From: an uncultured Gammaproteobacteria bacterium
GTDB taxonomy: Bacteria; Pseudomonadota; Gammaproteobacteria; Thiohalorhabdales; CAYUWI01
NCBI GenBank assembly: GCA_964448275.1
Contig: CAYUWI010000002.1
Span: 1-47,553 of the forward strand
Length of the DNA stretch: 47,553 bases
Direction: 5' to 3'
The notes under the pieces were generated by a model. That model made no database searches. It had not been told where the DNA came from and saw only the letters and a list, made by a program, of their open reading frames with translations. This document shows, one piece after another, positions 21,095 through 25,000 of the stretch (within the stretch, counting starts at the first letter, position 1; each line of letters begins with the position of its first letter). Both the position numbers and the translations under genes were made by a program.

Positions 21095-24000
21095 ATGGTG
21101 AACGTAAATCAAGAGTATGATTCCTCAAGCATCAAGGTACTCAAGGGGCTAGAAGCAGTCCGAAAACGCCCTGGAATGTATATCGGAGATACTGACGACG
21201 GTACCGGTCTCCATCACATGGCCTATGAGGTCGTAGATAATGCCATAGACGAGGCCTTGGCCGGTTACTGCGATCACATCGATGTGATCGTTCACCCTGA
21301 TGGCTCCCTGACCGTTGCCGATAATGGACGCGGTATCCCGGTGGATTACCACGAGGAGGAAAAGAGGCCGGCACCGGAAGTGATCATGATGAGCCTTCAC
21401 GCCGGTGGGAAGTTTGATACGAGTAGCTACAAGGTCTCTGGAGGCCTCCATGGTGTCGGACTCTCGGTAGTGAATGCCCTTTCGGAGTGGCTTCGCCTCA
21501 CAATCCGTCGTAATGGTCAGGTCTATCACCAGGAATACCGGCTTGGAGATCCAGTCACTGAGTTTCGGGTAGTCGGGGAAACAAGCTCGACCGGGACCAC
21601 TATCCAATTCAAACCAAGCCCACAGATCTTTAGCGACACCCAATTCCATTTCGATATCTTGGCTCGACGTCTGCGGGAGCTCTCCTTTCTGAATGCCGGC
21701 GTCGAGATCCGGCTTGTTGATGAGCGAACCGATCGGGCCGAGACCTTCTGCTATAGCGGAGGAATCCGCTCATTCGTCGATCACCTCAATCGCCACAAAC
21801 ACCCTCTTCACAAGGAAGCGATCTATATTCACGAGGCCCGTGAAGGGATCGAGGTGGAGATCGCGCTGCAATGGAATGAATCGTATCAGGAGAATATCTT
21901 CTGCTATACCAACAACATCCCTCAAAGTGATGGGGGGTCCCATCTATCCGGTTTCAAGGCGGGTTTGACCCGTAGTTTGAACGCCTATATTGAATCGTCG
22001 GGATTAACCAAACGGGAGAAAATACAGACCAGTGGTGAGGACGCGAGAGAGGGGCTCACCGCAGTAATCTCAGTGAAATTGCCCGATCCTAAGTTCTCCT
22101 CCCAGACAAAAGACAAACTCGTCTCTTCAGAGGTTAAGGGGCCTGTCGAGGCCATATTGAGTGATTTCCTCTCTCGCTACCTAGAAGAGCACCCTCGTGA
22201 AGCCAAGGCAATTGCCCAGAAGGTGATCGAGGCCGCTCGGGCACGGACAGCGGCCCGCAAGGCCCGCGACTTGACCCGACGCAAGGGGGCCCTGGAGACG
22301 ACCAATCTCCCTGGCAAGCTGGCCGATTGTCAGATTCGAGATCCTAAAGAAGCCGAGCTCTTTTTGGTGGAAGGGGACAGTGCCGGAGGATCGGCAAAGC
22401 AGGGTCGGGACCGACGTTTCCAAGCCATCCTACCTCTACGAGGCAAGATCCTGAATGTAGAGAAGGCACGCTTCGATAAGATCTTGAGCCACCAGGAGAT
22501 CGGCGCCTTGATCACCGCATTGGGTACTGGGGCAGGGAAGGAAGACTTCGATTCGGAGAAGCTACGCTATGGACGTATTATAATCATGAGTGTAGATGGA
22601 GGCGAATCGACCCTCATCAGAGGGGCTGAAGGGCATATCCGCACCGTCCGAGTCGGAGAGTTCATCGATCGACTCTGGGAGGAAGGGGACGATCCCAGGC
22701 GCTATCAGGTGCTGTGCTTCGATCCCTCGTCGGGTAAGAGCCGTTTCAAGACGATCCAAGGCACGATCCGACATGACCATAGCAATCCCCTTTACGAGAT
22801 TGAGGCGGTTTTTGGGCGACGAATCCGGGTGACCGGCGAGCACAGTGTCTTTGTAGCCGACGGGGCAGGGCGCCCGGTCCTCAAGCGAGGCGATGCCATA
22901 CGCCCAGGCGATCTATTGGCCGCTCCCATACGGCTTCCACACTGTAATACAGCACCTGAACGTCTTGATCTACTCCGCTTGGCTATGGGGCAAAAGACCG
23001 ATCTTGCAAGTGAACTTGCGGTACATGGGCCGGGTATTGAGCGGTGGATCTCAAGATACACGAACAGTGAATCCACCGCAGGCCTCACCGAAGTTGAACC
23101 ACAGCTCGTGGCGAGCACATCCGAAAACCAGGACCCCTCCTTGGTTGCTCAGCACCAATCCAACCGGCCAAGAGATGTTTCTACCCCTAACTGGGCACAA
23201 TTAGGAGAGCTGTCCCTAGGGGATCTCACCATCTTGGGTGAAGAGGTTGTTTGGATTCCCCGGCAGGGCGTCGGTCAACCGCTTTCCCGACATCTCCCCG
23301 TAGATAGCTCGCTGATGATCCTACTCGGCTACTTCGCTGCGAGTGGGTCAGTCAATGGCTACGACGGTATCCGTCTGAATGTGGGGCAACTCGATACTGC
23401 ACAAGCAGCCGAACTCGAGACAGCATTACGCGGAGTATTCGGGATCGGGCCTACTTTTGGCTTTGGAGAGGCAGATCAGACCGACACACTCTATTTCCGG
23501 AGCAGCGCGGCCGTTATGGTCCTGCAATTGTTATTTGGGTGCGACAGTTTTGCAATCTGCCAGCAGCAGATCCCGGATCTTGTCTTTAATGTAACCCCTT
23601 CATTGCAACTTGCCTTCCTACGTGGGTACTTCCTTGGAAGAGGGGGGCTCTATCCCCCTCAGGTGTGCTTTGGGGCGGCCTCAGAGGCCCAAGCCAGCCA
23701 ACTCATCTACCTCCTGCTGACACTCGGTATTAACGCCTCTTTAACCCCACGCACCCTTGGTGAGCAAAGGACCCCCGCCTCCCAGCCATCCGAGTTTGAT
23801 GTGGCGGTACAGTCTCGAGAAGGTGTGCAGGTATTGGAGCGTGTCTGGTCTGATCACGCTCGCAGTAATGAGATGCAAACTGAGTTATCGATGGCGCCCC
23901 AGACGGCGAATCCACAAGAAGGCCTAGTCCCTATGTGCGGTGACTTAGCAGGCTTTGAGGTCCGCTCAGTTCATCAAGTGCCAGCCTCCACACACATGGT

Positions 24001-25000
24001 CTATGACTTTTCAGTTACGGGTGATGAAACCTTCATCTGCGGCACTGGTGGGGTGTGCGCCCACAATACAGATGCAGATGTCGACGGTGCCCATATCCGA
24101 GCCCTCCTTTTGACCTTCTTCTATCGCCAGATGTACGAACTGGTGGAGAATGGCCACATCTACATTGCTCAGCCCCCCCTATACAAGCTCAAACAAGGGA
24201 AGAAGGAGAGCTATCTAAAGGATGAGGCCGCCTTGGAGGAGCAACTTCTGGAAAATGCCCTGGAAGGGGCAGCAGTGTATCCCTCGACAACCGCCACGGC
24301 TCCAATTGAGGGCGATCAATTGCTGGATGTGGCCCACCGTTTCCGGAATATCCAACGCATGATCAACCGACTGGGACGACGTTACCATCCTAGTCTCTTA
24401 CATGCCCTCCTTGATTTCCCAGATATTGGCCCAGAGGCTTGTCGGCACCAGACAACCCTACGGAGAGTAATGGAACAACTAGTGGATCAGCTCTCTCAGA
24501 AGGAAGGGAGTGAAAGGATACACTACGATTTGGAAATCCTCTCTGATCCCGAGCAGAACGCCTTCAAGGCCCTCGTGCATCGCTATGAACACGGGACTGT
24601 CCACTCCTCTGTAATTGATCGGGAATTTCTGGAATCCCCTGAACATGGCCGAATCCAAGAAATGGCCCAGACCCTGGCCGAATTGGTCCATCCACCAGTA
24701 AGGGTCAAGCGCGGTTCACGGGAATGTGAGGTGGAGGATTTCGACGCCGTTGTCGATTGGCTCTTAGAGGAAGGCAAGCGCGGCCTCTCCATCCAACGCT
24801 ACAAAGGCCTGGGAGAGATGAACGCCCAACAGCTTTGGGAAACGACGATGAACCCCGAGACTCGGCGCCTACTCCAGGTCCGCATTGAGGACGCGGTCTC
24901 AGCTGACCAGCTCTTTACTACATTGATGGGAGATGACGTTGAACCGCGACGCGCCTTTTTGGACGCCAATGCCCTCGAGGTATCGAATCTCGATATATAA
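21095..25000 (+). CDS. gyrB: DNA gyrase subunit B precursor, interrupted by an intein
   Basis: The start was moved to the ATG at 21095 ([32 protein letters not shown]; GGAG lies 10 nt upstream). GHKL motifs [25 protein letters not shown] and QTKDKL. Toprim motifs [10 protein letters not shown] and [11 protein letters not shown]-terminal motif [10 protein letters not shown]. The frame has 1301 codons; removing the 493-codon insert leaves 808 aa. Confidence 0.95.
22589..24067 (+). mobile_element. intein within GyrB (493 aa, with a LAGLIDADG-like endonuclease region)
   Basis: The conserved ...YGRIIIM / [14 protein letters not shown]... segment is split. The insert begins [10 protein letters not shown] (Ser1), contains block B VTGEHSVF, and ends [23 protein letters not shown] followed by Thr. 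The internal motifs [10 protein letters not shown] and [11 protein letters not shown] resemble LAGLIDADG. Confidence 0.85.

What the first reader, a model, noticed from the sequence alone, without database searches (positions are those of the whole stretch)
22589..24067. 493-residue intein splitting GyrB immediately before the Toprim DxD metal-binding motif
The GyrB frame is continuous, but the invariant segment ...LRYGRIIIM|[20 protein letters not shown]... is interrupted by 1479 nt. The insert starts with Ser ([12 protein letters not shown]), has a T-x-x-H block B (VTGEHSVF), and ends ...[23 protein letters not shown] followed by Thr. Ser1, the penultimate His, the terminal Asn and a +1 nucleophile are the hallmarks of a class 1 intein. 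Excision gives an 808-aa GyrB of normal length. An essential enzyme therefore depends on protein splicing at its catalytic centre. GyrB inteins are known from mycobacteria and cyanobacteria. I do not know whether this allele or insertion site has been described in a proteobacterium.
Basis: partly seen in the sequence, partly recalled or inferred. Interest (0 to 1): 0.7.

Follow-up and report, generated by a model that had tools for sequence, protein, structure and literature searches.

The report
GyrB intein with dead homing endonuclease
The DNA gyrase B gene of this salt-lake-type gammaproteobacterium is interrupted, one residue before its metal-binding aspartates, by a self-splicing protein element (an intein) that is real but ordinary: the same element sits at the same spot in hundreds of other species, and here its mobility enzyme has decayed.

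Summary
Window 22589-24067 (+) is a 493-codon in-frame insert in gyrB (21095-25000). It lies between M498 and T992 of the precursor, which is M496|T497 in E. coli numbering, one residue before D498 of the Toprim DxDxD motif. Removing it gives an 808-aa GyrB that aligns to E. coli GyrB without a gap. The insert is a class 1 intein with a LAGLIDADG endonuclease domain, by Pfam, NCBIfam, PDB sequence and fold matches. Ser1, T82-x-x-H85, D473, H492, N493 and Thr+1 are all present.

It is not novel as a kind. At least 503 species genomes encode relatives, and 79 of the 80 best sit at exactly this site. They include Chloroflexi, cyanobacteria, archaea and many Gamma- and Betaproteobacteria.

This copy has three particular features:
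- Both catalytic acids of the endonuclease are lost (E252S, D351R), and an HTH module seen in relatives is deleted. It is therefore probably splicing-competent but immobile.
- Its nearest relatives are only 44-46% identical and mostly from Chloroflexi.
- The host's closest GyrB relatives (Thiohalorhabdus, 77% identical) have no intein.

Verdict: a new, diverged member of a known kind. Splicing itself is inferred, not shown.

The parts
21095..25000 (+). gyrB precursor ORF: 1301 codons plus stop. It encodes N-extein, intein and C-extein.
   Evidence: NCBIfam PRK14939 'DNA gyrase subunit B' scores 1222.7 bits in two pieces. Pfam finds HATPase_c, DNA_gyraseB, Toprim, GyrB_hook, GyrB_insert and DNA_gyraseB_C.
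21095..22588 (+). N-extein, 498 aa, ending ...LRYGRIIIM. It contains the first Toprim motif EGDSAGG at 22370-22390. That motif is uninterrupted here, although it is the second intein site used in other species.
22589..22963 (+). Intein N-terminal splicing (Hint) subdomain, residues 1-125. Ser1 is at 22589-22591. Block B T82-G-E-H85 is at 22832-22843.
   Evidence: TIGR01445. Alignment to PI-PkoII residues 12-144. S1, T82 and H85 are invariant in 73/73 same-site alleles. The AF2 model has pLDDT of 93-97 here.
22964..23263 (+). Linker, residues 126-225. This is the remnant of the region that carries an XRE-type HTH module in many relatives. About 70 residues are missing here.
   Evidence: Alignment. 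Relatives carry precomputed Pfam HTH domains PF01381, PF13560 and PF12844; the window has no HTH hit. Identity to the 12 nearest alleles is only 26%, against 52% among themselves. pLDDT is below 50 at residues 165-178.
23264..23908 (+). LAGLIDADG homing-endonuclease domain, residues 226-440, degenerate. Motif 1 [10 protein letters not shown] is at 23321-23350, with S252 where relatives have the catalytic E. Motif 2 [10 protein letters not shown] is at 23618-23647, with R351 where relatives have the catalytic D.
   Evidence: PF14528, E=1.9e-8. Fold matches to PI-PkoII, PI-PfuI, PI-SceI and I-DmoI. Other alleles have E/D at position 252 in 70/73 and D at position 351 in 63/73; 61/73 keep both and only one other allele lacks both. 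PI-PkoII GYFIGDGD aligns to the window's GYFLGRGG. There is a deletion in the PDGxxxxIRGKP loop, with pLDDT below 50 at 393-398.
23909..24067 (+). Intein C-terminal splicing subdomain, residues 441-493. Block F VYDFSV is at 23999-24016 (D473). Block G ends ...CAHN, with His492-Asn493 at 24062-24067.
   Evidence: D473 and N493 are invariant in 73/73 alleles and H492 is present in 68/73. The region aligns to the PI-PkoII C-terminus ...LVYAHN.
24068..24997 (+). C-extein, 310 aa. It starts with Thr+1 (24068-24070) and the Toprim metal-binding motif TDADVDG (24068-24088). The stop codon is at 24998-25000.
   Evidence: The alignment to E. coli GyrB 6rks_B places the junction at M496|T497, next to D498/D500/D502.

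Best explanation
This is a canonical class 1 intein, carried in frame inside the essential gyrB gene of a Thiohalorhabdales-related gammaproteobacterium. It sits between the residues that correspond to E. coli GyrB M496 and T497.

Inferred mechanism:
1. The 1301-aa precursor is translated.
2. The Hint domain folds from its two halves (residues 1-125 and 441-493).
3. Ser1 performs an N-to-O acyl shift, helped by T82 and H85 of block B.
4. The Thr+1 hydroxyl attacks the ester and forms a branched intermediate.
5. Asn493 cyclises, helped by His492 and with D473 of block F, and releases the intein.
6. An O-to-N shift joins M498 to T992 (precursor numbering). This recreates the intact Toprim strand ...IIIM-TDADVDG... 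and an 808-aa GyrB.

Before splicing, 493 residues separate the Toprim core from its DxDxD metal ligands, so the precursor should be inactive.

The intein once spread by homing, using its LAGLIDADG endonuclease. In this copy the endonuclease is dead: both catalytic acids are replaced (E252S, D351R), an HTH module is deleted and a DNA-contact loop is shortened. The element is therefore now a fixed, vertically inherited passenger. Only its reading frame and its splicing domain are kept by selection, because any lesion there would destroy gyrase. It was probably acquired horizontally, since the closest GyrB relatives have none and the intein groups with Chloroflexi-type alleles.

Shown: the anatomy, homology, insertion site, distribution and residue states. 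Inferred: actual splicing, loss of nuclease activity, and the history.
For: - HMM hits. Pfam Intein_splicing E=1.5e-13 and LAGLIDADG_3 E=1.9e-8, both above their gathering scores. TIGR01445 scores above its cutoff, and there are matches to intein-bearing archaeal protein models.
- Solved structures. PI-PkoII (2cw7) matches at E=1.6e-25 over both the N- and C-terminal parts.
- Predicted structure. The AF2 model has pLDDT 86.9 and pTM 0.88. The best PDB fold matches are all intein-endonucleases: 2cw7 at E=4e-30, then TliVMA, PI-PfuI and PI-SceI.
- Excision restores the host. The spliced sequence aligns gap-free to E. coli GyrB across the junction at M496|T497.
- Same site elsewhere. All informative homologs share IIM|SVD...HN|TDADVDG. 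Of the 80 best genome loci, 79 are at this site, out of at least 503 hits, and they are intact ORFs.
- Splicing residues are kept and endonuclease acids are lost.
- Identity to the 12 nearest alleles, by region: 58% and 56% in the two splicing halves, 39% in the endonuclease and 26% in the linker. Among those relatives themselves the figures are 64%, 65%, 59% and 52%.
- Host relatives. Thiohalorhabdus GyrB is 77% identical, 807-809 aa long and has no intein domains.
- The window branches within the Chloroflexi-dominated subclade of an NJ tree.
- GC and GC3 of the intein match the exteins, so it is an old resident.
Against: - No experiment or proteomic evidence shows splicing.
- The window deviates from residues that are at least 90% conserved at 11 positions. 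Four lie in the splicing halves (V59T, T73A, Y75F, L456F) and could slow splicing.
- Endonuclease inactivity is inferred from two residue changes and some deletions. The domain still folds with high predicted confidence, so DNA binding or another role is not excluded.
- The NJ tree has no support values, and the window sits on a long branch, so its placement, and therefore the donor lineage, is tentative.
- Only one contig is available, so a second, intein-free gyrB elsewhere in the genome cannot be excluded.
Confidence: 0.85

Rival explanations
1. The intein is still a mobile element: its LAGLIDADG domain remains an active homing endonuclease that cuts intein-free gyrB alleles.
For: The domain is retained at full size, gives a Pfam hit, and is predicted to fold with high confidence. 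Most same-site alleles (61/73) keep both catalytic acids, so the family as a whole is mobile.
Against: Both metal-binding acids at the ends of the two LAGLIDADG helices are replaced, E252S and D351R, and only one other of 73 alleles lacks both. The HTH module and part of a conserved loop are deleted. Divergence in the endonuclease region is accelerated: 39% identity against 59% among relatives. From general knowledge of PI-SceI and I-CreI-type enzymes, these acids are required for cleavage.
Confidence: 0.05
2. The insert no longer splices. This gyrB copy is then a disabled gene, and gyrase function comes from another gyrB copy elsewhere in the genome.
For: Only one 47.5-kb contig is available. 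A few conserved splicing-domain positions are substituted (V59T, T73A, Y75F, L456F).
Against: All residues known to be essential for class 1 splicing are intact. A 1301-codon ORF has no stop or frameshift. The gene sits in the canonical dnaN-recF-gyrB location. The exteins are well conserved, 77% identical to Thiohalorhabdus GyrB. Intein GC3 equals extein GC3, with no sign of decay.
Confidence: 0.04
3. The intein is kept as a conditional switch. Splicing, and therefore the supply of active gyrase, responds to an environmental cue such as salt, temperature or metal ions, and the dead endonuclease domain has been re-used, for example for DNA binding.
For: The position is one residue from the catalytic metal site. 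The endonuclease fold is retained despite loss of catalysis. The host's relatives belong to Thiohalorhabdus, which I recall as extreme halophiles; no tool result here speaks to habitat. Conditional protein splicing is discussed in the intein literature (for example PMC10663303, listed), and I recall from my own knowledge that salt-dependent splicing has been reported for haloarchaeal inteins.
Against: Nothing in the sequence points specifically to regulation. Both splice nucleophiles are hydroxyls (Ser1, Thr+1), so a redox switch at the junction is unlikely. Retention of a dead endonuclease is the expected neutral stage of the homing cycle, because an essential host gene tolerates only in-frame changes.
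Confidence: 0.06
4. The insert is a lineage-specific GyrB domain that stays in the mature protein.
For: Proteobacterial GyrB does carry a real lineage-specific insert (PF18053 GyrB_insert), which is present here at a different place.
Against: The insert gives Hint and LAGLIDADG HMM and fold matches. The nearest GyrB relatives lack it. It interrupts the conserved IIIM-TDADVDG strand that is contiguous in all solved gyrase structures.
Confidence: 0.01

Closest known systems
Same-site GyrB inteins (IIM|SVD...HN|TDADVDG) in public genomes. Examples: Anaerolineae MAGs (L001, L031, L037), Thiorhodospira sibirica (P0026), Steroidobacteraceae and Nevskiaceae, Laspinema, Anabaena cylindrica UHCC 0172, and Methanoperedens.
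   Same: They share the insertion point, Ser1 and Thr+1, the TxxH, VYDFSV and HN blocks, and the Hint plus LAGLIDADG architecture. Homology is clear, with E-values down to 1e-114 (protein search) and 1e-128 (genome scan).
   Different: Identity is at most 46%. The window has lost both endonuclease catalytic acids and the HTH module that many relatives carry. At 493 aa it is about 70 aa shorter than the 565 aa typical of its nearest subclade. Its host clade (Thiohalorhabdales relatives) is otherwise intein-free at this site.
Ssp GyrB intein (Synechocystis PCC 6803) and the 'gyrB' allele of Soucy et al. 2014 (PMC4071816), which includes Allochromatium vinosum
   Same: It is a class 1 intein in the Toprim domain of GyrB, next to a catalytic acidic motif, and it is also found in a gammaproteobacterium.
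   Different: The insertion site differs. In related loci this second intein sits at EGDSAGG|SAKQGRD with Cys1 and Ser+1, often 435 aa long, and 18 of the 80 loci carry both inteins. The window is uninterrupted there. The assignment of Ssp GyrB itself to that site rests on my memory of its sequence (CFSGDTLV...FVHN), not on a tool result.
PI-PkoII (Thermococcus kodakarensis Pol intein-2, PDB 2cw7)
   Same: It is the best solved-structure relative by sequence (E=1.6e-25) and by fold (Foldseek E=4e-30, TM 0.61-0.66). It has the same Hint plus LAGLIDADG layout.
   Different: It has a different host protein (family B DNA polymerase) and an archaeal host. It is an active endonuclease with an intact GDGD motif where the window has GRGG.
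Mycobacterial GyrA inteins (for example Mxe GyrA)
   Same: They are inteins in a subunit of the same enzyme. Some are mini-inteins or have degenerate endonucleases and are vertically inherited (own knowledge).
   Different: They lie in a different subunit and at a different site, and are not homologous alleles.

Membership tests
Class 1 (canonical) intein | In-frame insertion in a conserved host protein whose removal restores a colinear host sequence | tested here: met
   The spliced 808-aa sequence aligns gap-free to E. coli GyrB across M496|T497. The nearest GyrB relatives are 807-809 aa and have no insert.
Class 1 (canonical) intein | Nucleophile (Cys/Ser) at intein position 1 (block A) | tested here: met
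   Ser1 is at 22589-22591. Position 1 is Ser in 73/73 same-site alleles.
Class 1 (canonical) intein | Block B T-x-x-H | tested here: met
   T82-G-E-H85 is present; T and H are invariant in 73/73 alleles.
Class 1 (canonical) intein | Block F Asp and block G penultimate His plus terminal Asn | tested here: met
   D473 in VYDFSV, H492 and N493 are present. D and N are conserved in 73/73 alleles and H in 68/73.
Class 1 (canonical) intein | +1 extein nucleophile (Cys/Ser/Thr) | tested here: met
   Thr at 24068-24070, the first residue of TDADVDG.
Class 1 (canonical) intein | Hint-domain profile match and Hint fold | tested here: met
   PF14890 scores 51.3 bits against a cutoff of 35.8. TIGR01445 scores 25.7 against 24.5. 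The AF2 model matches intein structures.
Class 1 (canonical) intein | Demonstrated protein splicing (excised intein plus ligated exteins) | not testable with these tools
   This needs expression and Western blotting, or mass spectrometry of the junction peptide [15 protein letters not shown].
Active LAGLIDADG homing endonuclease | Two LAGLIDADG helices in an alpha-beta-beta-alpha-beta-beta-alpha fold | tested here: met
   PF14528, E=1.9e-8. Fold matches to PI-PkoII, PI-SceI, I-DmoI and I-Tsp061I.
Active LAGLIDADG homing endonuclease | Conserved acidic residue (D/E) at the C-terminal end of each LAGLIDADG motif for metal binding | tested here: not met
   S252 replaces E (70/73 alleles have E or D there) and R351 replaces D (63/73 have D). 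PI-PkoII GDGD aligns to GRGG.
Active LAGLIDADG homing endonuclease | Site-specific cleavage of the intein-free allele | not testable with these tools
   This needs a nuclease assay.
GyrB M496|T497 intein allele (same homing site) | Identical insertion point, ...IIM | TDADVDG... | tested here: met
   (79 of 80 loci).
GyrB M496|T497 intein allele (same homing site) | Sequence homology of the intein to other occupants of the site | tested here: met
   E-values down to 4e-114 and 3e-128. Identity is at most 46%.
Ssp GyrB-type allele (EGDSAGG|S site) | Insertion after EGDSAGG in the first Toprim motif | tested here: not met
   The window reads [19 protein letters not shown] without interruption (22370-22390). 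The other-site inteins found in 18 related loci start CF.GDT and end FVHN|SAKQGRD.

The most novel reading that the evidence does not exclude
The immobilised intein has been domesticated. Because it sits one residue from the Toprim metal ligands of an essential enzyme, its splicing rate would act as a post-translational valve on gyrase supply, for example tuned by the salt or temperature regime of a halophilic sulfur oxidiser. The catalytically dead but still folded LAGLIDADG domain would be kept for a new role such as DNA or GyrA contact. A weaker novel reading also remains open. The M496|T497 site is present in at least 503 species genomes and is often paired with a second Toprim intein, yet I could not find it described in the literature I was able to search. 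It may therefore be an under-described major intein hotspot.
Probability: 0.06. Interest if true: 0.6.

Novelty: new member of a known kind. Interest (0 to 1): 0.25.

Why it matters
For genome annotation, this gyrB should be annotated as one intein-containing gene of 1301 codons. In public protein sets the same-site alleles are often labelled only 'LAGLIDADG family homing endonuclease' or 'hypothetical protein', or are cut into fragments.

For biology, it is a clean example of the late stage of the homing cycle. The endonuclease has been disabled by substitutions and in-frame deletions only, while the splicing domain and the reading frame are held by the essentiality of the host gene. Together with the EGDSAGG site it shows that both acidic motifs of the GyrB Toprim domain are intein hotspots.

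For practice, it is a Ser1/Thr+1 intein with no cysteine at either splice junction, and it comes from a relative of a genus I recall as halophilic. That could interest protein engineers who want redox-insensitive splicing. None of this changes current understanding of inteins or gyrase.

Tried and rejected
1. Natural split inteins. Many homologous proteins in the protein database start inside the intein (for example P0036 and P0053, both on contigs longer than 300 kb). I asked whether they were naturally split GyrB inteins. This is rejected: on those long-read contigs the neighbouring dnaN and recF genes are also broken into pieces, so the truncations are frameshift errors. The same-site inteins in 73 genome loci are uninterrupted ORFs.

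2. Recent foreign acquisition by base composition. I found no GC or GC3 difference between intein and exteins.

3. A named description of this insertion point. Seven searches found general surveys (PMC4760082, PMC4071816) but no text naming the site. The supplementary tables of Novikova et al. are not held.

4. Source sample and habitat. The window is a whole 47,553-nt contig. The same organism occurs in GCA_018609625.1 and in SRR14300226. No paper mentions either accession.

5. Exact-sequence look-up of the GyrB precursor failed, although the protein is in the collection as P0067. I did not pursue the reason.

6. Rfam found no RNA family in the window, and none of the other nine large ORFs scanned against Pfam gave an intein-domain hit.
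Full report
**Observation**

The window holds one long ORF on the + strand that ends at 25000. GyrB begins at ATG 21095 ([33 protein letters not shown]...). An independent gene call on a Logan contig of the same organism uses the same start.

Translation of 22589-24067 gives 493 codons with no stop. It begins [12 protein letters not shown] and ends GTGGVCAHN. 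The DNA at the junctions reads ...ATA ATC ATG | AGT GTA GAT... and ...GCC CAC AAT | ACA GAT GCA GAT GTC GAC GGT....

**What the insert is**

- Pfam finds Intein_splicing (E=1.5e-13, 51.3 bits against a gathering score of 35.8), spanning residues 20-493. It also finds a LAGLIDADG_3 domain at residues 339-393 (E=1.9e-8). The flanks give the full set of GyrB domains, with the Toprim match stopping at the insertion.
- NCBIfam gives intein_Nterm above its cutoff, plus partial matches to archaeal proteins whose models include inteins. The exteins match DNA gyrase subunit B at 1222.7 bits in two pieces.
- The closest solved structure by sequence is the intein endonuclease PI-PkoII (E=1.6e-25). It aligns at both the N-terminal splicing region and the C-terminal region, including the second LAGLIDADG motif and the terminal ...AHN.
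- An AlphaFold2 model built on 31 aligned sequences is confident (mean pLDDT 86.9, pTM 0.88). Its best PDB fold matches are all intein-endonucleases: PI-PkoII at 4e-30, then TliVMA, PI-PfuI, PhoVMA and PI-SceI. Mini-inteins and free-standing LAGLIDADG enzymes follow.

**Where it sits in GyrB**

The spliced sequence around the junction aligns without a gap to E. coli GyrB from full-length cryo-EM entries (6rks_B). RYGRIIIM matches residues 489-496 and TDADVDG matches 497-503. The intein therefore lies between M496 and T497 in E. coli numbering.

From established knowledge of gyrase, E424, D498, D500 and D502 are the Toprim acidic residues that bind Mg2+. The intein is therefore one residue before D498. 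An unspliced precursor would have 493 residues between the Toprim core and these ligands and should be inactive. That last point is an inference.

**Splicing residues**

I extracted 73 uninterrupted inteins at the same site from genome loci and aligned them with the window. State of each key position in the 73 alleles (the window has the conserved residue at every one):

| Position | Role | Conservation |
|---|---|---|
| Ser1 | block A nucleophile | 73/73 |
| T82 | block B | 73/73 |
| H85 | block B | 73/73 |
| D473 | block F | 73/73 |
| N493 | terminal Asn | 73/73 |
| H492 | penultimate His | 68/73 |

The +1 residue is Thr. All defining sequence features of a class 1 intein are therefore met. 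Splicing itself cannot be tested with these tools.

**Endonuclease state**

In relatives the two LAGLIDADG motifs read LLGFFVAEGS and [11 protein letters not shown]. The window reads [10 protein letters not shown] and [11 protein letters not shown].

- The acidic residue at the end of motif 1 is E or D in 70/73 alleles. The one at the end of motif 2 is D in 63/73.
- 61/73 alleles keep both, and only one other allele lacks both.
- PI-PkoII's GDGD aligns to the window's GRGG.
- The window lacks about 70 residues that form an XRE-type HTH module in its nearest relatives. Those relatives carry Pfam PF01381, PF13560 and PF12844; the window gives no such hit.
- The window also has a shortened PDGxxxxIRGKP loop. 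Both deleted regions coincide with the only low-confidence segments of the model, residues 165-178 and 393-398.

Identity of the window to its 12 nearest alleles, compared with the identity of those alleles to each other:

| Region | Window vs nearest | Nearest vs each other |
|---|---|---|
| N-terminal splicing half | 58% | 64% |
| C-terminal splicing half | 56% | 65% |
| Endonuclease | 39% | 59% |
| Linker | 26% | 52% |

This is the pattern expected when splicing stays under selection and the endonuclease does not. Stops and frameshifts are still forbidden because the host gene is essential. I conclude, by inference, that the endonuclease is inactive and the intein no longer homes.

**Distribution and novelty**

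A protein search with the intein alone found 59 clusters. Every informative one has the junctions IIM|SVD... and ...HN|TDADVDG.

Of the 80 best, 79 show ...N|TDADVDG in frame, and 73 gave a complete, uninterrupted intein that was kept for the alignment. Hosts include:

- Chloroflexi, Fimbriimonadales, Gemmatimonadota and Acidobacteriota
- Cyanobacteria, including the cultured Laspinema, Anabaena cylindrica UHCC 0172 and Oscillatoria
- Archaea: Methanoperedens, Methanosaeta, Haloferacaceae and Woesearchaeota
- Many Proteobacteria: Steroidobacteraceae, Nevskiaceae, Parabeggiatoa, Thiorhodospira sibirica, Rubrivivax, Burkholderiaceae and Polyangiaceae

The allele is thus common and already present in proteobacterial genomes. 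The literature I could search reports 33 GyrB inteins in Actinobacteria, Chloroflexi, Cyanobacteria and Proteobacteria (PMC4760082). It also reports a 'gyrB' allele shared by cyanobacteria, haloarchaea and Allochromatium vinosum (PMC4071816). I found no text that names the M496|T497 site, and the relevant supplementary tables are not held.

**A second site**

Eighteen of the 80 loci carry another intein after EGDSAGG. It has Cys1, ends ...FVHN|SAKQGRD, and is often 435 aa long. From memory this is the Ssp GyrB site. The window is uninterrupted there. Both acidic motifs of the GyrB Toprim domain are therefore intein hotspots.

**Host and history**

The spliced GyrB is 77% identical to Thiohalorhabdus GyrB, which is 807-809 aa and has no intein domains. 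The next matches, at 61-74%, are to other Gammaproteobacteria. Thiohalorhabdus belongs to Gammaproteobacteria, order Thiohalorhabdales.

The window is a complete 47,553-nt contig. The same organism appears in GCA_018609625.1 and SRR14300226.

The intein's best identity to anything is 44-46%, to Anaerolineae alleles. In a neighbour-joining tree it sits on a long branch inside the Chloroflexi-dominated subclade, which shares the signature DETFICG. It does not sit in the large Gamma/Beta-proteobacterial subclade, which has DENF[IV]AG. The tree has no support values, so this placement is tentative. GC and GC3 match the exteins.

The most economical history is a horizontal acquisition by homing into this lineage, long residence, and then decay of the endonuclease.

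**Rivals**

- An active mobile intein is unlikely, given the lost acids and the deletions.
- A non-splicing, disabled gyrB is unlikely, given the intact splicing residues, the intact 1301-codon ORF, the conserved exteins and the canonical dnaN-recF-gyrB position. A second gyrB elsewhere cannot be excluded from one contig.
- A retained structural domain is effectively excluded.
- A regulatory (conditional splicing) role is possible, but nothing specific in the sequence supports it.

**Verdict**

The finding is real and correctly interpreted, but it is a diverged new member of a widespread, known kind of element. Interest is low to moderate.

Noticed in passing
window 17622-18750: The gene order is yidC, yidD, rnpA, rpmH (all on the - strand; rpmH at 18244-18381), then a 369-nt gap, then dnaN at 18751. 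dnaA, which normally lies between rpmH and dnaN, is absent from this locus and from the rest of the contig as far as I scanned it. The related locus L085 keeps dnaA-dnaN.
   Followed up: partly
window 25815-26081 and 26232-26498: There is a perfect 267-nt direct repeat with 417-nt spacing. It lies inside two adjacent cytochrome c genes (25055-26152 and 26219-26563, - strand) that share an identical N-terminal haem domain. Contig JAHEOH010000093.1 in another assembly of the same organism ends about here. This is either a real tandem duplication or an assembly collapse or expansion.
   Followed up: partly
related proteins P0001-P0004, P0010, P0012; loci L001-L003, L031, L037 and others: Many same-site GyrB inteins carry an XRE-type helix-turn-helix module (PF01381, PF13560, PF12844) between the N-terminal splicing domain and the LAGLIDADG domain. 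It is presumably an extra DNA-recognition module. The window, P0011, P0017 and P0019 lack it.
   Followed up: partly
loci L002, L005, L008, L009, L012, L017, L032, L037, L039, L053, L056, L057, L062, L063, L066, L069, L074, L077: These GyrB genes carry two inteins in the Toprim domain. One follows EGDSAGG (Cys1, 151-484 aa) and the other precedes TDADVDG. Each sits next to one of the two acidic catalytic motifs.
   Followed up: yes
L084 (contig_76506) 3211-6569; L085 (contig_23724) 3182-7349: Gene calls that start inside the intein (P0053, P0036) come from long-read MAG contigs in which dnaN and recF are also fragmented. They are frameshift artefacts, not natural split inteins.
   Followed up: yes
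protein P0009 (632 aa), C-terminal junction: This allele reads ...CAHN|TDATDADVDG, a three-residue TDA duplication right after the intein. It may be a footprint of imprecise homing or repair, or a sequencing error.
   Followed up: no
L021 (Halobacteriales archaeon QH_2_65_14): This is the only one of the 80 best loci without an N|TDADVDG-type junction in any forward frame. It may be the same intein family in a different host site or protein, or a variant motif.
   Followed up: no
window 38150-40483 (+): A 777-aa Cdc48/VCP-like double-AAA ATPase with CDC48_N and CDC48_2 domains. By my recollection this architecture is more typical of archaea and eukaryotes than of Gammaproteobacteria.
   Followed up: no
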